From Acidobacteriota bacterium (GTDB taxonomy: Bacteria; Acidobacteriota; UBA6911; RPQK01; JAJDTT01), in NCBI GenBank assembly GCA_965217775.1, contig CBDCJH010000002.1, positions 896,001 through 960,000 of the forward strand: a stretch of DNA of 64,000 nt, in the 5' to 3' direction. The position numbers and the translations under genes are program-made. The notes under the pieces are model-generated. The model was not told where the DNA came from and made no database searches. It saw only the letters and a list, made by a program, of their open reading frames with translations. This document shows, piece after piece, positions 19,364 through 60,787 of the stretch (its first letter is position 1; each line of letters starts with the position of its first letter).

Positions 19364-20853
19364 CCTGCCATTGGACTCCTCCCTGCATTCTCTCCGACGA
19401 AGCGGTTCGAATCGAGACCCGCCGGCAGCTCTTCGCCCGTGGCGCCCGAGGTCTCGGGCTCGCCGCCCTGGCCACGCTTCTGGGCGAGGACGCCACGGCA
19501 GCGGGCGCCGGAGCGCTGGATCAGACGGGTGGACTTCCCCACCTGCCCCACTTTGCTCCCAAGGCCAAGCGGGCCATCTACATGCACATGGTGGGGGCGC
19601 CGCCGCAGATGGAGACCTTCGACTACAAGCCGGAGCTGGAGAAGTGGCTGGACAAGGACCTGCCCGACTCGATTCGCAAGGGGCAGCGGTTGACCACCAT
19701 GACCTCGGGACAGGAGCGATTTCCCATCGTTCCGTCGGCCTTCAAGTTTCAGCAGCATGGCCGGAGCGGGGCCTGGATCTCGGAGCTCCTGCCCTACACG
19801 GCCCGCATGGCGGACGATCTGGCCATCATCCGTTCCATGCACACGGAGGCCATCAACCACGAGCCGGCCATCACCTTCATCCAGACCGGCCGTGAAGTGG
19901 CGGGACGGCCCTGCATCGGTTCCTGGCTGGCATACGGACTGGGGAGCATGAACCGGGACCTGCCCACCTTCGTGGTTCTCAACGCCTCCCACAGCCATCC
20001 CAAGGCCAACGTGCAAGCCATCTCCGCCAAGCTCTGGACCTCCGGCTTCCTCTCCTCCAAGTTCGCCGGGGTCTCCCTGAGGTCCACCGGCGACCCGGTC
20101 CTGTACGTGAACAATCCCGACGGCGTGCCCAGCCGGATTCGCCGCCGAATGCTGGACTCGCTGGCCGAGATGAACCGGCTCCAGCACCGGCAGATCGGAG
20201 ACCCGGAGACCCTGTCGCGGATCGAACAATACGAGATGGCGTTCCGGATGCAGAGTTCCGTCCCCGAGTTGACGGACCTTTCCAAGGAACCGGAGAGCAC
20301 CTATCGCCTCTACGGCGAGGACGCGAAGGTCCCCGGAACCTTCGCCCACAGTTGCCTGATGGCCCGCCGCTTGGCCGAACGCAACGTCCGTTTCGTCCAG
20401 ATCTACCATCGGGGATGGGACGTGCACCGCGAGGTGCCCCAGGTGCTACCGAGCCAGTGCAAGGACGTGGACCAGGGCTGCTGGGGGCTGGTCCAGGACC
20501 TGAAGCAGAGAGGGCTCCTGGAAGACACCCTGGTGATCTGGGGCGGCGAGTTCGGCCGCACCGCCTACTGCCAGGGCAAGCTCACCGACACGACCTACGG
20601 ACGGGATCACCATCCCCGCTGTTTCAGCCTCTGGATGGCCGGGGGCGGTATCCGGGGAGGCGTCGTCCACGGCGAGACCGACGACTTCGCCTACAACATC
20701 GTGCGCGACCCGGTCCATGTGCGCGACTTCCAGGCCACCATCCTTTCGCTCTTCGGCATCGACCACGATCGCTTCACCTTTCGCTACCAGGGCCTGGACA
20801 ACCGCCTGACCGGAGTCGACCCGGCTCGGGTGGTGAAACCCATTCTGGCCTGA
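19360..20853 (+). CDS. DUF1501 domain protein (sulfatase-like)
   Basis: Tat-like TRRQLF; [42 protein letters not shown]; overlaps upstream stop. Confidence 0.92.
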
Positions 20854-54082: not shown

Positions 54083-54943
54083 ATGGGGAGCTGGCGTATG
54101 TGGAAGAGGCGCGGAGTGTTTCTGGGACTGATGGTCTGGGCCCTCGCCGGAGGTTCCATCGTTGCTGAGGGGTCCCGGTACTTTCTCTATCTGTCCGATC
54201 AACGTGTCGTGACGGTGGAGTTGCTGGACCCCGCGATGGCGATCCTCAATTTCATCAACCTGGGAGACAGCTTCGAAGCGGTGCGGGCTTACGAGCTGGT
54301 GCTGGTGGACGCCAGTGGCCGAACCGGCCGGGGACACCTGATCGTCCGGGAGGATCCGCCCAGCCCGAGAGAGGTCTACCAGGTGAGCGGTCTGATCAAG
54401 CCCCGCTCCTTCCTGGGCTACAACATCGCGGGGCGGTATCAGTTCGCGACGCCTCCCGAAACGTGCTACCTCAAGGTGGGCGGACGCATTTTGGAACTGG
54501 AGCCCCTGAACGAGGAACAGTTCGACCAGTTGGCCTCCATGGTGTCCGAGCTGGATCTGGAGGCGGCCAATTCGGCCGCCATGGTGCGGGACGTCGGGTT
54601 CAACCGCGGGTATGGCGTTCTTCACAAGGCGTCGGAGGTCGACGCCCGGCTCCGCGGATATTTTCCGGACGAAGCAGTCATTCCCACCGTTCTGGTGGAG
54701 GGTTCCGAACCGCAACTGCCGAGCGATGCCTCCCATCTGAAGGATCCGGTGGTGGTGGTCGTCAGCATCTCCGTTAGTCCATGGGGAGGTGTCTTCGATC
54801 TGGAAGTGGTCGAGAGCGTCGACGAGAAGCTGGACCAGATGGCCCTCGACACGGTCCGCAACTCCTGGCGCTTCCTGCCGGCCATCTCCAAGGGAGAAAT
54901 CGTCGGCAGCGAGCTGACGCTGAACGTCCGGTTCAGAAGGTAG
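54083..54943 (+). CDS. Secreted protein with TonB C-terminal domain
   Basis: Signal peptide; C-term VVES..KLDQMALDTV...WRFLPA...G. Confidence 0.75.
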   Translation: MGSWRMWKRRGVFLGLMVWALAGGSIVAEGSRYFLYLSDQRVVTVELLDPAMAILNFINLGDSFEAVRAYELVLVDASGRTGRGHLIVREDPPSPREVYQVSGLIKPRSFLGYNIAGRYQFATPPETCYLKVGGRILELEPLNEEQFDQLASMVSELDLEAANSAAMVRDVGFNRGYGVLHKASEVDARLRGYFPDEAVIPTVLVEGSEPQLPSDASHLKDPVVVVVSISVSPWGGVFDLEVVESVDEKLDQMALDTVRNSWRFLPAISKGEIVGSELTLNVRFRR

Positions 54944-55066
54944 TAGGGGTGGCTGTTTCAGTCGGTATCGGCCCAGCCTCAATCCTTGGACCAGCAGGCA
55001 TCAGGTCGGACAACACCGGATATCCGTAGGGGCACCCCTTGTGTGTGTGGGTGGGTGCCCTCTTAC

Positions 55067-55224
55067 CAGCCCGTGGCAAAAGTCATCACGGCATTCGACC
55101 GTCCCTGCATCCCGGCGGACGGCGTTGCGATTCGGGCACATACTCCCGGTATGCACCCGAATCGCGCCTTGTCCGGCGGGCGCAGGAACGGTCTCGGTGC
55201 TCGCGGGACTTTCACCACGGACTG
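55067..55224 (+). mobile_element. 158-bp MITE copy 1
   Basis: TIRs cagcccgtggcaaaagtc / gactttcaccacggactg; TSD ttac. Confidence 0.92.
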
Positions 55225-55243
55225 TTACCTCCGAAGGGAGCCA

Positions 55244-56206
55244 TCACCCTTGGTACGGCGAAAGGGTCGGCCAAGCCCCGCGAACGCGGCCGTGGTGGCG
55301 TGTCAGCCGGGGGAAGTCGGGCGAGTTCGGATCCGGCCTCCGAGGCCGTAGATCCGGTCCGAGATAGAGACAGCCGACCTCCTCAGGAGGGAGCTTGCTC
55401 ACGGTCGCTCCGGCCGAATCCACCGCCGCGATCCAGCGCAGCTTCAGCATCCTGAGATCAAGCGGTTCCCTCAAACTGAGGTGATCGAGATCCGTCTGAC
55501 GATAGGCGACGTGCCGTCCCATCTGATCCAGCAGAAACTCCGGCGTGAAGCCGGGGTCTTTGCCGCTGGCCGCCCATACCAGACCGCCGAGCGAAAGATA
55601 CGTGTCGTGCAGGTGCAACACATCCACGAAGTCACGGATCTCACTGCGTCCCGCCAAGGCCAGGACCTTGTTGGTCGCAGCGTCGGCGTCGTGTAGCCGA
55701 TAACCGCAGAGGTCGTCCTTTTGGACCGGAAAAAAGCGGAAGGCGCTGTCGTAGGCCCATTCCATCTTCAGATGCTGATCCGCAATTACTACAATAGCTC
55801 GTTGGAACGTCGGGGTGCGCAGTAACCATGAGAACACGTATCCGGCATGCCGAAGCGATTTAGCATCCGCCGCCGCGCTCTGGGCGATGCTGTCGTCCAG
55901 GTCGTGGAACAGATCGATATCTTCCGAGAAACGTGGCGAATCGGCATCTCGATGTAGCAGTCCGTGGTGAAAGTCCCGCGAGCACCGAGACCGTTCCTGC
56001 GCCCGCCGGACAAGGCGCGATTCGGGTGCATACCGGGAGTATGTGCCCGAATCGCAACGCCGTCCGCCGGGATGCAGGGACGGTCGAATGCCGTGATGAC
56101 TTTTGCCACGGGCTGGTAGGACCGTAGCGCCCGCAACGTAGCTTTCCGGACTGCGATTGGCGGCGATCTGGCGCAGAATTTCGGCTTGTGAAGAGGTTAG
56201 CGGCAT
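55244..56206 (-). CDS. AbiEii/AbiGii-like nucleotidyltransferase toxin carrying an in-frame 54-aa MITE insert
   Basis: YVAGATVL[insert]HRDADSPRFSEDIDLFHD; ATNKVLALAGRSEIRDFVD. Confidence 0.8.
   Translation of the reverse strand: MPLTSSQAEILRQIAANRSPESYVAGATVLPARGKSHHGIRPSLHPGGRRCDSGTYSRYAPESRLVRRAQERSRCSRDFHHGLLHRDADSPRFSEDIDLFHDLDDSIAQSAAADAKSLRHAGYVFSWLLRTPTFQRAIVVIADQHLKMEWAYDSAFRFFPVQKDDLCGYRLHDADAATNKVLALAGRSEIRDFVDVLHLHDTYLSLGGLVWAASGKDPGFTPEFLLDQMGRHVAYRQTDLDHLSLREPLDLRMLKLRWIAAVDSAGATVSKLPPEEVGCLYLGPDLRPRRPDPNSPDFPRLTRHHGRVRGAWPTLSPYQG
55958..56115 (-). mobile_element. 158-bp MITE copy 2 (intragenic)
   Basis: Reverse-complement copy; TSD gtag on both sides. Confidence 0.93.
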
Positions 56207-56445
56207 AGCTTCGCGGCTAGCAGAAATCCGGAATGGCCGCCGTTCTTTCTCAGACCATCGACAATCATTGGCAGGTCTGCGAGCGTTATTTCCAGGTCAG
56301 CGCGCAGGTACCAGAAACACTGCCCATGGAAACGCCGAAATGCCCACCTCGCGGTGCGCAAACGAGCCTCATCGGTCAGATCGGACGATGTCCCGGATGA
56401 TTGCTCTTGAGGGGAAACGCGCCCTTGCGCCACATCGGTCTGCAT
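56197..56445 (-). CDS. Small protein overlapping the toxin start; putative antitoxin
   Basis: AFRRFHGQCFW...L....GG; 10-bp overlap with the downstream gene. Confidence 0.65.
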   Translation of the reverse strand: MQTDVAQGRVSPQEQSSGTSSDLTDEARLRTARWAFRRFHGQCFWYLRADLEITLADLPMIVDGLRKNGGHSGFLLAAKLCR

Positions 56446-56665
56446 GACGAATCTCCTTCGGGCGTTCGCCCGGTTTCCAACGTTTCTCGAAGTTTACCAG
56501 TCCGCGCCATTTGTCGTAGAGCATCGATATCGGTTGGCCCTGGGGGCCTATGCTGTACGATCCGCGACGCGGAATTCTGATTCGCATGTGAGCGTAACCA
56601 AAACCAGGAAAAAGAAAATCCCAGGATGCCGGGACACCTTCATCTTTCTACAGTAACCTGCACCC

Positions 56666-58213
56666 GTGACCAGACGCCGACTGCCCATCGGCATCCAGAC
56701 CTTCCGCAAGATTCGGGAGCAGGATTTCTACTACGTCGACAAGACGATCCATATTCGCCGGCTCCTCGGCCACGGCACGCACTACTTTCTGTCGCGTCCG
56801 CGGCGTTTCGGAAAAAGCCTGTTCCTCGACACCTTGAAGGAGCTGTTCGAGGGCAACGAGCCGCTGTTCGAGGGCCTCGACATCCACGACGGCTGGAACT
56901 GGTCGGTTCGCCATCCGGTGTTGAATCTGAGTTTCGGCCGCGGCAACAACAAAGAGCCGGGCTACGTCGAGGCGAATCTCATGGAGCAACTTGCCGCCGC
57001 CGAGCGTCGCGCGGGCGTCGTCGCCCACTACGCCACGGCGGCCGGACGTTTCTCCTCCCTGATCGAGGCATTGCATCGACAGACTGGCCATCCGGTGGCG
57101 GTGCTCATCGACGAATATGACAAGCCGATTCTGGATGCTCTGGAGGCGCCGGAGATCGCTCGCGCCAATCGCGACTTTCTGCGCGGCCTCTACGCCGTCG
57201 TCAAGGACAGCGACGCGCACATCCGGTTCAGCTTCATTACCGGAGTGAGCAAGTTCTCCAAGGGTAGCCTCTTCTCCGGCCTCAATAATCTCCAGGACAT
57301 CACTTTGGACCGGCGCTACTCTGCCATCTGTGGCTACACCGAGTCGGATCTGGACATGGTGTTCGCACCGGAACTCCCGGGCCTCGACCGCGATGATATC
57401 CGCGACTGGTACAACGGCTACAGTTGGTTCGGCCAGGAAAGGGTCTACAACCCTTTCGACATCCTCCTGCTCTTCGACAGTCGCAGATTCGGCGCCTACT
57501 GGTTCGAAACCGGCACACCCAAGTTCCTGGTCGACACGCTCTTCAAGCGGCAGGTCAGATCCGTGGCGTTGGATGACATGGTGGGGAGCAGCGATCTGCT
57601 GTCGACCTTCGACGTGGACGAAATGGCAACGGAAGCGCTGCTGTTCCAGACCGGTTACCTCACCATCACGGGGACCGAGGACCTTGGCGGAGAGCTACTC
57701 TATCGGTTGGGCTATCCCAACCGGGAGGTGCGGCAGAGCCTGAACCGAAGCCTGTTGCGCCACTTGGTGCGGGACTCGTCGCGTCAGATGGCCAACAGCG
57801 TCCGCCTGTACCGGCTGTTGGAGGCCAACGACTTCGCCGGACTCGAGACGCTGTTCCATGCCTTCTTCGCCAGCATCCCCTACGATTGGTACACGAACAA
57901 CGACATCGCCAACTATGAGGGCTACTACGCGAGCGTCGTCTACTCCTATTTCGCGGCTCTGGGTCTTGACATTACCGTGGAGGACAGCAGCAGCCACGGG
58001 CTCCTGGACATGGCGGTCCGTTTCAAAGGCAACGTCTACCTGTTGGAGTTCAAGGTGGTCGAGTTCGCCCCGGTGGGCGCCGCGATGGCGCAATTGAAGG
58101 CGAAGCGGTACGCGGACAAGTACCGTGGGTCAGGACAACCGATCTATCTGATCGCCGTGGAGTTCAGCCAGGAGTCCCGCAACCTGGTGGCGTTCGAGGT
58201 GGAGCGCGCTTGA
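56666..58213 (+). CDS. AAA-ATPase-like protein with C-terminal PD-(D/E)XK nuclease domain
   Basis: LPIGIQTF, YYVDKT, SRPRRFGKS Walker A, LIDEYDKP Walker B, D..V....YLLEFK. Confidence 0.92.
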   Translation: MTRRRLPIGIQTFRKIREQDFYYVDKTIHIRRLLGHGTHYFLSRPRRFGKSLFLDTLKELFEGNEPLFEGLDIHDGWNWSVRHPVLNLSFGRGNNKEPGYVEANLMEQLAAAERRAGVVAHYATAAGRFSSLIEALHRQTGHPVAVLIDEYDKPILDALEAPEIARANRDFLRGLYAVVKDSDAHIRFSFITGVSKFSKGSLFSGLNNLQDITLDRRYSAICGYTESDLDMVFAPELPGLDRDDIRDWYNGYSWFGQERVYNPFDILLLFDSRRFGAYWFETGTPKFLVDTLFKRQVRSVALDDMVGSSDLLSTFDVDEMATEALLFQTGYLTITGTEDLGGELLYRLGYPNREVRQSLNRSLLRHLVRDSSRQMANSVRLYRLLEANDFAGLETLFHAFFASIPYDWYTNNDIANYEGYYASVVYSYFAALGLDITVEDSSSHGLLDMAVRFKGNVYLLEFKVVEFAPVGAAMAQLKAKRYADKYRGSGQPIYLIAVEFSQESRNLVAFEVERA

Positions 58214-58372
58214 CAGCCCGTGGCAAAAGTCGTCGCGGCATTCGACCGTCCCTGCATCCCGGCGGACTGTGTTGCGATTCGGCTCACATACTCCCGGTAT
58301 GCTCCCGAATCGCGCCTTGTCCGGCGGGCGCAGGAACGGTCTCGGTGCTCGCGAGACTTTCACCACGGACTG
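58214..58372 (+). mobile_element. 159-bp MITE copy 3 (diverged)
   Basis: Same TIRs; TSD ttga, which includes the stop codon of the ATPase gene. Confidence 0.9.
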
Positions 58373-58418
58373 TTGACGGCGCGAGATCCTCCGCGGCGCG
58401 CTGCCAAATGGAGGGAAC

Positions 58419-59000
58419 ATGCCGATCTATGATGAATTCGAAGTGTCCCTGCGTTACATCGAACCACGCATCTGGCGGCGCTTCCAGATCGAGAGAAGAG
58501 CGACCTTCGCCCACCTCCACGTAGCGATTCAAGTCGGCTTCGGCTGGGAGCATGCTCACCTGTGGGAATTTCGCACCCGCGCCCGTCGCGGGCGGGCGCT
58601 GGCAGGCCCGGCGATGGACGACGTCTGGAGCCTGCGCGAACCGCCGCCCGATGCGGAATCGACCAAGCTGGCGGGGTTCTTCGGCCCTCGCAAGCACCGG
58701 AGATGCGTCTATGTGTACGATTTCGGCGACTTCTGGGTCCACGACGTGTTGTTCCGGCGGCGCTTCGCGTCCCAGGCGCGGTTCCATCGACGACTGATCG
58801 CCGGCGAGCGCTCCGGTCCACTGGAAGACTGCGGCGGCGTCCCCGGCTACGAACGGCTTGTTGAGTTCTTGCAGACGGGAGTCGATCCCTGGGAGGAAGA
58901 CCCCGCGGTGCTCAAGGAATGGTACGGCCACTGGGACCCGGAGGCGTTCGACCTCGAAACTGCCAGGATGCGCTTTGTCTGGCCCGGCCGCAGCACCTGA
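58419..59000 (+). CDS. Plasmid pRiA4b ORF-3 family protein, copy 1
   Basis: PRIWRRF, LHVAIQ.GFGW...HLWEF, YVYDFGDFW.H, P.EDCGGVPGY. Confidence 0.9.
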   Translation: MPIYDEFEVSLRYIEPRIWRRFQIERRATFAHLHVAIQVGFGWEHAHLWEFRTRARRGRALAGPAMDDVWSLREPPPDAESTKLAGFFGPRKHRRCVYVYDFGDFWVHDVLFRRRFASQARFHRRLIAGERSGPLEDCGGVPGYERLVEFLQTGVDPWEEDPAVLKEWYGHWDPEAFDLETARMRFVWPGRST

Positions 59001-59044
59001 CGGCAGTCCCGGGAAAGCGCGAGACTGGCGATGGAACTTCTCCG
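58428..59044 (+). repeat. 617-bp direct repeat, copy A
   Basis: Aligns to 60215-60831 at constant offset 1787 with few substitutions. Confidence 0.92.
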
Positions 59045-59164
59045 CGGGACCGAGAAGGGGGACAGTCACTTTCTATCCTCGTGACTGCGGTCGTATCATC
59101 CTCCTTCCCCCTTACAATCCTGGGGGCCTATGGTATCAAGTACGGGACAGGCCTTGAGGAGTAA

Positions 59165-59322
59165 CAGTCCGTGGTGAAAGTCCCGCGAGCACCGAGACCG
59201 TTCCTGCGCCCGCCGGACAAGGCGCGATTCGGGAGCATACCGGGAGTATGTGCCCGAATCGCAACGCCGTCCGCCGGGATGCAGGGACGGTCGAATGCCG
59301 TGATGACTTTTGCCACGGGCTG
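59165..59322 (-). mobile_element. 158-bp MITE copy 4
   Basis: Reverse-complement copy; TSD gtaa. Confidence 0.92.
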
Positions 59323-59403
59323 GTAAGGAAGCTCTACCGAATATCCCGACCGACGGACTGCTCATCGGCGAGGCCGGTCATTATGGATAAGGAGTCTCCA
59401 GCC

Positions 59404-59637
59404 ATGCAAAAGGTGCTGCACCTGAGAACGACAGTGCTGCCCGGAGGCAAAATTGAAATCGTGGACCGCGAACTTCCGGTGGGTGCGTCCGTTGACGTGG
59501 TCGTCCATCCCTTCTCGGTCTCGGCACAGCGGTCCGCCGTTGACATCCTGGACGAAGCGCCGGGCCGGCGCCTCTTCAAGACCGGAGAGGAGGTGGAGTC
59601 GTATCTGGAGGACGAGCGCGCATCGTGGGACCGCTGA
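59404..59637 (+). CDS. Putative antitoxin
   Basis: RBS aaggag; C-term ER.SWD overlapping the PIN gene start. Confidence 0.75.
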   Translation: MQKVLHLRTTVLPGGKIEIVDRELPVGASVDVVVHPFSVSAQRSAVDILDEAPGRRLFKTGEEVESYLEDERASWDR

Positions 59638-60187: not shown

Positions 60188-60787
60188 GTGACCGAGACGT
60201 TGGCGCGCGCCACGTATGATGAATTCGAAGTGTTCCTGCGTTACATCGAACCACGCATCTGGCGGCGCTTCCAGATCGAGAGAAGAGCGACCTTCGCCCA
60301 CCTCCACGTAGCGATGCAAGTCGGCTTCGGCTGGCAGCATGTCCACCTGTGGGAATTTCGCACCAGTGCCCGTCGCGGGCGGGCGCTGGCAGGCCCGGCG
60401 ATGGCCGACGTCTGGAGTCTGTGCGAACCGCCGCCCGATGCGGAATCGACCAAGCTGGCGGGGTTCTTCGGCCCTCGCAAGCACCGGAGATGCGTCTATG
60501 TGTACGATTTCGGCGACTTCTGGGTCCACGACGTGTTGTTCCGGCGGCGCTTCGCGTCCCAGGCGCGGTTCCATCAACGACTGATCGCCGGCGAGCGCTC
60601 CGGTCCACTGGAAGACTGCGGTGGCGTCCCCGGCTACGAACGGCTTGTTGAGTTCTTGCAGACGGGAGTCGATCCCTGGGAGGAAGACCCCGCCGTGCTC
60701 AAGGAATGGTACGGCCACTGGGACCCGGAGGCGTTCGACCTCGAAACTGCCAGGATGCGCTTTGTCTGGCCCGGCCGCAGTACCTGA
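60188..60787 (+). CDS. pRiA4b ORF-3 family protein, copy 2 (native start/RBS replaced)
   Basis: Near-identical to copy 1 from YDEFEV onward; may be untranslated. Confidence 0.7.
   Translation: MTETLARATYDEFEVFLRYIEPRIWRRFQIERRATFAHLHVAMQVGFGWQHVHLWEFRTSARRGRALAGPAMADVWSLCEPPPDAESTKLAGFFGPRKHRRCVYVYDFGDFWVHDVLFRRRFASQARFHQRLIAGERSGPLEDCGGVPGYERLVEFLQTGVDPWEEDPAVLKEWYGHWDPEAFDLETARMRFVWPGRST

What the first reader, a model, noticed from the sequence alone, without database searches (positions are those of the whole stretch)
55067..59322. Frame-neutral 158-bp MITE family: +162 bp per insertion and stop-free in all three frames of one strand
Seen: four copies within 4.3 kb (55067-55224 +, 55958-56115 -, 58214-58372 +, 59165-59322 -). 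Each has 18-bp imperfect TIRs, a central hairpin (gcgattcgggcacatac-tcccg-gtatgcacccgaatcgc) and its own 4-bp TSD (TTAC, CTAC, TTGA, TTAC in element orientation), so they are independent transposition events. 158+4 = 162 = 54 codons; copy 3 is 159 bp and is intergenic. The ORF track shows three overlapping ORFs crossing copy 1 in all three forward frames, so a sense insertion in any codon phase keeps a gene open. A rough estimate at this GC makes three open frames a few-percent event by chance. Established parallel: Rickettsia palindromic elements add in-frame peptides. Inference: a non-autonomous element (4-bp TSD, possibly IS5/IS1182-type helper) that may be selected for protein-level stealth. 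No cognate transposase is in the window.
Basis: partly seen in the sequence, partly recalled or inferred. Interest (0 to 1): 0.78.

Follow-up and report, generated by a model that had tools for sequence, protein, structure and literature searches.

The report
Ordinary MITE family, mostly outside genes
The four repeats are real copies of a small non-autonomous transposon that is abundant in this uncultured Acidobacteriota genome, but it mostly sits between genes or on stop codons, so its open reading frames look like a by-product and not a selected disguise.

Summary
Four copies (158, 158, 159 and 158 bp) with 18-bp imperfect terminal inverted repeats (TIRs) and their own 4-bp target-site duplications (TSDs) lie at the stated coordinates. 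The genome holds 205 full-length copies, and all 8 other genomes of the genus have matches.

A likely parent was found outside the window. It is a 1.47-kb IS1182/IS5-like element with the same TIR and a 4-bp TSD.

The "selected protein-level stealth" reading is not supported.
- **Stop-free frames are common here.** 7-10% of 158-nt windows in this genome lack stops on a given strand, and 14-20% lack them on either strand.
- **The 3n length is recent.** Older subfamilies are 159-160 bp.
- **Copies avoid genes.** By my own crude gene caller, 31 of 205 copies lie in called genes, against 56% for target-matched sites and 82% for random sites.
- **No excess of open or sense insertions.** 19 of 31 read through, against 76% simulated; sense to antisense is 18:13.
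- **Gene-core copies are young.** 17 of 126 young copies against 2 of 79 old ones.

Real in-frame 54-codon inserts do exist. Window copy 2 splits an AbiEii toxin domain, and relatives have precise empty sites. 35 copies sit on a stop codon, and a TSD copy still holds the whole stop. This is a new member of a known kind, of low interest.

The parts
55067..55224 (+). MITE copy 1 (158 bp, identical to the most common copy sequence), TSD TTAC. It lies between the TonB_C gene (ends 54943) and the AbiEii gene (ends 55244 on the - strand).
   Evidence: flanking genes from Pfam and my gene caller
55958..56115 (-). MITE copy 2 (158 bp), TSD GTAG on + (CTAC in element orientation). It is a sense, in-frame insert of 162 bp (54 codons) after codon 30 of the AbiEii toxin ORF.
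   Evidence: precise empty sites in G006, G005 and G001; the Pfam match spans the site in the G006 ortholog
55244..56206 (-). AbiEii-family nucleotidyltransferase toxin ORF (320 aa including the 54-aa MITE-encoded insert; the uninterrupted ortholog has 266 aa).
   Evidence: Pfam PF08843 at residues 89-208, profile 29-177; the ortholog matches at residues 21-154, profile 14-177
56197..56445 (-). 82-aa ORF that overlaps the toxin start by 10 nt. It may be the antitoxin partner; it has no family match.
   Evidence: 0 families; the role is inferred from position only
58214..58372 (+). MITE copy 3 (159 bp, older subfamily), TSD TTGA. It was inserted exactly on the TGA stop (58211-58213) of the AAA-ATPase_like/PDDEXK_9 gene 56666-58213, and the left TSD copy still holds the stop.
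59165..59322 (-). MITE copy 4 (158 bp), TSD GTAA on + (TTAC in element orientation). It lies between the PRiA4_ORF3 gene (58419-59000) and a called gene at 59404-59637.

Best explanation
This is a typical bacterial MITE. It is a 158-bp, almost fully palindromic, non-coding element with 18-bp TIRs. I infer that it is moved in trans by the DDE transposase of a 1.47-kb IS1182/IS5-like insertion sequence found elsewhere in the same genome, which has the same termini. Insertion goes into c-YTAR-g sites and duplicates the central 4 bp. The family is confined to one genus of uncultured Acidobacteriota among the genomes searched. It seems to have been active recently, since 46 copies are identical. 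Most insertions into genes are removed by selection, so surviving copies lie between genes or exactly on stop codons, where the YTAR target contains the stop and a TSD copy keeps it whole. The open frames and the 3n footprint of the current subfamily are most likely by-products of GC-rich, TA-poor, palindromic sequence and of one particular founding copy. As a side effect, the few recent insertions inside dispensable genes (a toxin, defence-type and surface proteins) leave the ORF open with 54 extra codons. Shown here: structure, copy number, TSDs, target consensus, location statistics, empty sites and the candidate parent IS. Inferred: trans-mobilisation, purifying selection as the cause of the depletion, and loss of function in the interrupted toxin.
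For: 205 full-length copies were found, 150 of them with an exact 4-bp TSD, and the target logo is c-YTAR-g with flanks that are not AT-rich. Three 1475-1476-bp elements share the 16-bp terminus and have 4-bp TSDs. One encodes an intact 452-aa protein with DUF772, DDE_Tnp_1_6 and DDE_Tnp_1 matches, and its best NCBIfam match is IS1182 at 3.5e-50. Site classes by my gene caller: 118 intergenic, 35 on stop codons, 21 upstream within the longest ORF, and 31 inside called genes. The nulls give 82% intragenic for random sites and 56% for both 4-mer- and 6-mer-matched sites (binomial p = 2e-33). Stop overlap is 17% against 3.7% (p = 8e-14). All 35 stop-codon insertions keep the full stop in a TSD copy. 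Read-through among intragenic copies is 19 of 31 against 76% simulated, and orientation is 18 sense to 13 antisense. Gene-core copies number 17 of 126 among young copies (at least 94% identity to copy 1) against 2 of 79 among older ones (Fisher p = 0.011). Older subfamilies are 159-160 bp with shared indels. Stop-free 158-nt windows are common in this genome. Matches were found in 8 of 8 other genomes of the genus and in 0 of 22 genomes outside it. Empty sites were found for three interrupted genes.
Against: Copies of 3n footprint are found in gene cores more often than others (18 of 151 against 1 of 54, Fisher p = 0.028). This is in the direction the stealth idea predicts, although length is confounded with age. 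Among old copies the difference is 6 of 30 against 4 of 49 (p = 0.17). The gene calls come from my own crude codon-usage caller (82% coding; it missed the 82-aa ORF next to the toxin), so the class counts are approximate. A model-free check with the longest spanning ORF points the same way but more weakly (median 331 aa against 465 matched and 538 random). Depletion from genes could partly reflect a target preference beyond the 6-mer that I matched. Transposition by the candidate IS was not tested, and the MITE shares only its termini with that IS.
Confidence: 0.8

Rival explanations
1. Selected stealth: the 158-bp subfamily succeeded because its 162-bp footprint and stop-free sense strand let it persist inside genes, so the element is under selection for frame neutrality.
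For: The most common copy sequence has no stops in 3 of 3 sense frames and 2 of 3 antisense frames. The 3n subfamily is the largest and youngest (146 of 205 copies are 158 bp). Gene-core copies number 18 of 151 for 3n footprints against 1 of 54 for others (p = 0.028). 97% of simulated sense insertions read through. Real in-frame inserts were verified by empty sites.
Against: Only 31 of 205 copies are in called genes, so the genic niche cannot explain the family's success. There is no excess of read-through (19 of 31 against 76%) or of sense orientation (18:13) among survivors. Gene-core copies disappear with age (2 of 79 old copies). Earlier subfamilies spread at 159-160 bp. Stop-free windows are common at this composition. 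The best-documented insert splits a catalytic domain of a toxin, and in G007 it has partly decayed into a frameshift.
Confidence: 0.1
2. Host-useful RNA or DNA element: the long hairpin serves as a terminator, an mRNA stabiliser or an RNase III site at 3' ends, as proposed for ERIC and Correia elements, and this explains its position at stop codons.
For: The predicted hairpin is very stable. 35 of 205 copies lie exactly on stop codons, above the matched null. Published parallels for other MITEs are described in PMC2229807 (passages).
Against: The stop-codon excess follows directly from a YTAR target that contains TAA, TAG or TGA, together with the removal of genic insertions. Intergenic copies show no bias between convergent, tandem and divergent spacers (25, 62 and 31 of 118 against 19%, 54% and 27% expected). 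Orientation between tandem genes is 36:26. Rfam gave no match. No expression data were examined.
Confidence: 0.07
3. The repeats are not mobile elements but REP-like or recombination-generated duplications.
For: The sequence is palindromic and mostly extragenic.
Against: Each copy has its own 4-bp TSD (150 of 205 exact). Relatives have precise empty sites. The TIRs are shared with a transposase-bearing IS.
Confidence: 0.02

Closest known systems
Bacterial MITEs with contiguous open frames (ERIC/IRU, YPAL, the 107-bp Correia/NEMIS form), as reviewed by Delihas (PMC2229807, passages read)
   Same: They are 100-200 bp, have TIRs and a TSD, form a long stem-loop, are mostly intergenic, have open reading frames, and are occasionally found fused in frame to host ORFs.
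   Different: The sequence, host phylum (uncultured Acidobacteriota) and parent IS differ. Here the target is a 4-bp YTAR and not TA, and the location statistics were tested against a matched null.
Rickettsia palindromic elements (RPE) (PMC2229807 and PMC10969869, passages read)
   Same: They are palindromic elements of about 150 bp that add in-frame peptides to proteins.
   Different: RPEs are reported to sit in protein genes at unusually high frequency (44 integrations in unrelated metabolic genes of R. conorii, as PMC10969869 puts it), and some products keep their activity. Here only 15% of copies lie in called genes, gene-core copies are young, and the clearest case splits a catalytic domain of a toxin. 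RPEs have no clear TSD or parent IS, whereas this family has both.
Coxiella QMITE1 and QMITE2 (PMC5896051, passages read)
   Same: These MITEs overlap stop codons and gene 3' ends and occasionally lie in frame in ORFs. QMITE2 is a hot-spot for insertion of IS1111, an IS110-family element (family placement recalled). This is a close parallel to the IS110-family element found here four times in the MITE's central hairpin.
   Different: The sequences are unrelated, the direct repeats are of different length (2-3 or 7-11 nt) and the host differs.
IS1182 / IS5 family insertion sequences (candidate parent)
   Same: The transposase carries DUF772 and DDE_Tnp_1_6 / DDE_Tnp_1 matches, the element is about 1.5 kb with TIRs, and it makes a 4-bp TSD at YTAR-like targets. 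That this target is typical of the IS5 group is recalled, not tested.
   Different: The NCBIfam IS1182 score of 171 bits is below the curated cut-off of 270, so family placement is approximate. The MITE shares only the terminal 16-18 bp with the IS.

Membership tests
[quoted passage not shown] | Short (well under 500 bp) and without a transposase gene | tested here: met
   Copies are 158-160 bp. I ran no family scan on the frame translations; at this length no transposase can be encoded.
[quoted passage not shown] | Terminal inverted repeats | tested here: met
   18-bp TIRs matching at 15 of 18 positions. 509 TIR-like sites pair up at 158-160 bp spacing.
[quoted passage not shown] | A target-site duplication of fixed length that differs between copies | tested here: met
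   150 of 205 copies have an exact 4-bp TSD of 24 different sequences. Empty sites in relatives carry one copy of the target.
[quoted passage not shown] | Many dispersed copies | tested here: met
   205 full-length copies on both contigs; matches in 8 of 8 other genomes of the genus.
[quoted passage not shown] | An autonomous partner with matching TIRs and the same TSD length that mobilises it in trans | tested here: inconclusive
   A matching IS exists: 3 copies with both termini, 1 with an intact 452-aa DDE transposase. Mobilisation itself cannot be tested with these tools.
IS1182 family (parent IS) | The transposase reaches the curated NCBIfam IS1182 model cut-off | tested here: not met
   NF033551 gives E = 3.5e-50 and 171.3 bits against a cut-off of 270. 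It is the best of 6 IS models, followed by IS5_4 at 80 bits against a cut-off of 140. The protein is IS1182/IS5-like, but membership is not established.
IS1182 family (parent IS) | DDE transposase domain | tested here: met
   PF13751 DDE_Tnp_1_6 at 26.7 bits (cut-off 25.1) and PF05598 DUF772 at 60.1 bits (cut-off 23.1). Catalytic residues were not mapped.
RPE-like 'selfish DNA in protein-coding genes' | High frequency of in-frame insertions in conserved protein genes | tested here: not met
   31 of 205 copies lie in called genes, against 56% at target-matched sites. 13 read-through gene-core cases were found, of which 8 have any Pfam match at E <= 0.01 (7 reach a curated cut-off) and 5 have none.
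RPE-like 'selfish DNA in protein-coding genes' | Host proteins that carry the insert stay functional or conserved | not testable with these tools
   The only indirect signs are that the insert splits the AbiEii Pfam domain, that the G007 copy has decayed into a frameshift, and that gene-core copies are rare among old copies.

The most novel reading that the evidence does not exclude
The switch from 159-160-bp ancestors to a 158-bp founding copy (a 162-bp, stop-free footprint) was itself adaptive for the element. It would have opened dispensable genes as an extra niche and driven the latest burst. Some of the 54-aa inserts would then be tolerated or exapted loops in surface and defence proteins, as in Rickettsia RPEs, but with the parent transposase known.
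Probability: 0.1. Interest if true: 0.5.

Novelty: new member of a known kind. Interest (0 to 1): 0.25.

Why it matters
The family is a clean and abundant MITE in a little-studied lineage of uncultured Acidobacteriota. Its structure, target and candidate parent IS are all visible in one genome, so it is useful for annotation. Its open frames create spurious ORFs, such as the three across copy 1, and long fused ORFs that gene callers will report. It also gives a worked negative result: open frames plus a 3n footprint do not by themselves show selection for tolerance inside proteins. The real route to harmless insertion here is the YTAR target, which places copies on stop codons that a TSD copy keeps whole. 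The IS110-family element that sits only in the MITE's hairpin is a further natural example of sequence-specific IS110 targeting of repeats.

Tried and rejected
- **Autonomous parent.** I first took the four 1.67-1.75-kb MITE-ended units for the autonomous parent. This was rejected because the internal gene is an IS110-family DEDD transposase inserted at one fixed position in the MITE hairpin. The MITE arms differ from one another by 3-4 nt while the inserts are 99.8-100% identical, so these are independent insertions and not a composite that moves as a unit.
- **Rfam.** A scan of 54800-59600 found nothing at E <= 1. A scan of the IS110 locus gave only 5 weak matches far below the gathering scores, so no bridge-RNA family was recognised.
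- **Solved structures.** A phmmer search with the interrupted AbiEii protein returned 0 hits at E <= 1, so I could not place the insert on a solved structure.
- **Model-free location test.** The test with the longest stop-to-stop ORF spanning each site discriminates poorly in this GC-rich genome. It agrees in direction only.
- **Intergenic bias.** A check for bias between spacer types and for orientation bias found none.
- **Literature.** Searches for this family (terms MITE, Acidobacteria, IS1182) found no description. That covers only the held library.
[quoted passage not shown] I did not resolve whether that gene is intact.
- **Not run.** I did not use structure prediction, complex prediction, sequencing-run look-ups or the large protein searches. 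They would not have changed the verdict.
Full report
**1. What is there**

The region holds four copies of one element at 55067-55224 (+), 55958-56115 (-), 58214-58372 (+, 159 bp) and 59165-59322 (-). Each starts with CAGYCCGTGG and ends with CCACGGRCTG, giving 18-bp TIRs that match at 15 of 18 positions. Each is flanked by its own 4-bp duplication: TTAC, CTAC, TTGA and TTAC in element orientation. As a single strand the whole element folds into one long hairpin (-96.4 kcal/mol, z = -8.5). Rfam has no match for the region.

**2. Genome-wide picture**

The window is G000:C2:896001-960000, in a 6.43-Mb, 62.3% GC genome.
- blastn with copy 1 gives 273 aligned segments, of which 205 span the full element.
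- Lengths are 158 bp (146 copies), 159 bp (33), 160 bp (16) and others (10).
- 46 copies are identical to one another and to window copy 1; I call this the most common copy sequence.
- 107 copies are on + and 98 on -.
- 150 of 205 have an exact 4-bp TSD of 24 different sequences, led by TTAA, CTAG, ATAT, TCAA and CTAC.
- The target logo is c-YTAR-g, and the flanks are not AT-rich.

All 8 other genomes of the same genus have matches, some 100% identical. None of the 22 genomes searched outside the genus has one. An exact 35-mer scan of 185,579 species genomes found 51 loci, all in MAG records labelled Acidobacteriota or Candidatus Aminicenantes.

**3. Candidate parent element**

Pairing TIR-like sites genome-wide revealed three 1475-1476-bp elements, at C2:310455-311929, 316892-318366 and 2325898-2327373. 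They share the same 16-bp terminus. Two have exact 4-bp TSDs (CTAG and TCAA), and the third has TTAG on one side and CTAG on the other.

The third element encodes an intact 452-aa protein. It matches DUF772 (60 bits), DDE_Tnp_1_6 (26.7 bits, cut-off 25.1) and DDE_Tnp_1. Its best NCBIfam model is IS1182 (E = 3.5e-50, 171 bits), which is below the curated cut-off of 270. The other two elements are identical to each other and appear frameshifted near the C-terminus. More fragments exist elsewhere.

That this IS actually mobilises the MITE is inference.

**4. Are the open frames remarkable?**

The most common copy sequence has no stop trinucleotide on the + strand and three TGA in one frame of the - strand.

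| Null model | Stop-free on a given strand | Stop-free on either strand |
|---|---|---|
| Mononucleotide shuffles | 1.6% | 2.4% |
| Dinucleotide-preserving shuffles | 15% | 16% |
| All real 158-nt windows of this chromosome | 7.3% | 14% |
| Real windows at matched GC | 10.1% | 20% |

Five or six open frames out of six occur in 5-8% of sampled windows. The trait is therefore common at this composition.

The 3n footprint is not a family constant. Of copies at least 98% identical to copy 1, 69 of 71 are 158 bp. At 90-94% identity 22 of 44 are 158 bp, and below 90% only 3 of 35. The older copies share indels that make them 159-160 bp: 50 copies have an extra base after position 94 and 19 after position 48. 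Earlier subfamilies thus spread with footprints of 163 or 164 bp.

**5. Where the copies sit**

No gene finder was on hand, so I wrote a codon-usage ORF caller. It called 4,408 genes covering 82% of the genome. It is crude and misses some small genes. I applied it to a copy of the genome from which each MITE plus one TSD copy had been removed.

| Site class | MITE sites (of 205) | Random positions | 4-mer-matched | 6-mer-matched |
|---|---|---|---|---|
| Intergenic | 118 (58%) | 13.7% | 34.6% | 33.8% |
| On a stop codon | 35 (17%) | 0.4% | 3.7% | 3.7% |
| Upstream of the called start, within the longest ORF | 21 (10%) | 3.9% | 5.9% | 6.1% |
| Inside a called gene | 31 (15%) | 81.9% | 55.9% | 56.5% |

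The binomial p is 2e-33 for the genic depletion against the matched null and 8e-14 for the stop-codon excess.

In all 35 stop-codon cases one TSD copy still holds the complete stop codon. This follows from a target that contains TAA, TAG or TGA. Window copy 3 is such a case, on the TGA of the AAA-ATPase_like/PDDEXK_9 gene 56666-58213.

Intergenic copies show no bias between convergent, tandem and divergent spacers: 25, 62 and 31 of 118, against 19%, 54% and 27% expected. A model-free check using the longest ORF that spans each site agrees in direction but is weak: medians are 331 aa for MITE sites, 465 aa for matched sites and 538 aa for random sites.

**6.

Of the 31 intragenic copies, 18 are sense and 13 antisense (p = 0.47), and 19 leave the ORF open. 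I simulated insertion of the most common copy sequence at 20,000 target-matched genic sites. The ORF stayed open in 76% overall, 97% in sense orientation and 50% in antisense. The survivors are therefore not enriched for read-through (19 of 31, p = 0.057, and the deviation is on the low side). In gene cores (at least 20 aa from either end) the figure is 13 of 19 (p = 0.42).

Gene-core copies are nearly all young: 17 of 126 copies at or above 94% identity, against 2 of 79 older ones (Fisher p = 0.011).

One result goes the other way. Copies with a 3n footprint are in gene cores more often than the rest (18 of 151 against 1 of 54, p = 0.028), but length is confounded with age. Among old copies the counts for all intragenic sites are 6 of 30 against 4 of 49 (p = 0.17). 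A frameshifting insert also destroys the very ORF by which 'intragenic' is recognised, so some such difference is expected without any selection on the element.

**7. Real in-frame inserts**

*Window copy 2.* It lies in sense orientation after codon 30 of the 320-aa ORF 55244-56206 (-), an AbiEii-family toxin (PF08843, residues 89-208, profile 29-177). The orthologous genes in G006, G005 and G001 are uninterrupted at exactly this point. They read GCTACGGTC-CTCC-ATCGAG where G000 has CTAC + element + CTAC. In the 266-aa G006 ortholog the Pfam match runs across the site (residues 21-154, profile 14-177, 33.6 against 25.5 bits). The insert therefore splits the nucleotidyltransferase domain. It lies between AGATVL and HRDADSPRFSEDIDLF, which I recall as the G[GS]...DxD signature region of this fold; that motif was not tested here. 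In G007, the closest relative at this locus, only the last 41 nt of the MITE remain and 7 nt of flank are lost. That is a net +34 nt, a frameshift. I infer that the open frame hides a probably inactive toxin.

*Other genes.* Pfam scans of the 13 gene-core read-through ORFs gave family matches at E <= 0.01 for 8 and none for 5.
- Seven reach a curated cut-off: a TonB-dependent-type outer-membrane barrel, a TPR protein, a copper amine oxidase whose enzyme domain is matched only to profile position 240 of 407, a sulfatase matched from profile position 99, a He_PIG/LamG protein, an AlbA_2 + HATPase_c_4 + HTH protein, and an OB-fold protein.
- One shows only weak methyltransferase-like matches below cut-off.
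- The AlbA_2 gene has an empty site in G006.
- The barrel gene has an empty site in 5 relatives, though its 3' end in G000 differs further from the orthologs.

**8. Comparison with what is known**

[quoted passage not shown] It contrasts the open 107-bp Correia form, which is common in genes, with the 155-bp form, which has stops and is intergenic (PMC2229807, passages).
- A 2024 review calls in-frame fusions 'not unusual' and singles out RPEs for their high frequency (PMC10969869, passages).
- The Coxiella study reports MITEs that overlap stop codons, in-frame inserts, and QMITE2 as a hot-spot for IS1111 (PMC5896051, passages).
- A large survey describes MITEs as mainly intergenic (PMC11602168; only the start of its abstract in the search listing was seen).

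The present family fits this known kind. What is new is the host lineage, the sequence and the identified parent. I found no description of it in the held library.

**9. Verdict**

This is a real, abundant MITE that seems to have been active recently, with an IS1182/IS5-like candidate parent. It is a new member of a known kind. The 'frame-neutral, stop-free' property is true of the current subfamily and does yield a handful of open interrupted ORFs. The evidence favours a by-product of composition and chance over a selected disguise. Confidence in that reading is 0.8, with about 0.1 left for the stealth reading.

Noticed in passing
G000 C2:1656568-1658241, 3134809-3136482 (L002), 5760147-5761892, 6039542-6041287: A 1.52-kb IS110-family element occurs four times at 99.8-100% identity. 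Its 317-aa protein matches DEDD_Tnp_IS110 and Transposase_20, and NCBIfam 'IS110 family RNA-guided transposase' at 217 bits (cut-off 140). Every copy lies at the same position in the central hairpin of a MITE copy, between MITE positions 88 and 95. The host MITE arms differ from one another by 3-4 nt, so these look like independent, sequence-specific insertions. This parallels IS1111 in Coxiella QMITE2.
   Followed up: partly
G000 C2:483865-484186, 2174457-2174777, 4957274-4957593: Pairs of MITE copies on the same strand lie only 4-5 bp apart, as if a new copy had inserted into the YTAR duplication beside an existing one (coordinates).
   Followed up: no
G000 C2:985933-986029, 3579131-3579227, 4889634-4889730, 5007959-5008055: A 97-bp internal-deletion derivative of the MITE (positions 1-55 joined to 107-158, with a short overlap) is present four times, so it may be mobile itself.
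   Followed up: no
window 58428-58713 and 60215-60500: A 286-nt direct repeat at 97% identity lies within two ORFs, 58419-59000 (PRiA4_ORF3 by Pfam) and 60188-60787 (not scanned). MITE copy 4 lies between them.
   Followed up: no
L024 (G007:C9), orthologue of window 55244-56206: In the closest relative at this locus, the MITE in the AbiEii gene is reduced to its last 41 nt, with 7 nt of flank deleted. This shows decay of an intragenic copy into a frameshift.
   Followed up: yes
window 54986-55455 (+): The three overlapping ORFs across copy 1 (121, 138 and 108 aa) exist only because the element is open in all sense frames. Such MITE-generated ORFs are likely to be mis-annotated as hypothetical proteins. 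In the six-frame search with the interrupted AbiEii protein, well over a hundred of the listed matches covered only its MITE-encoded residues 31-84.
   Followed up: partly
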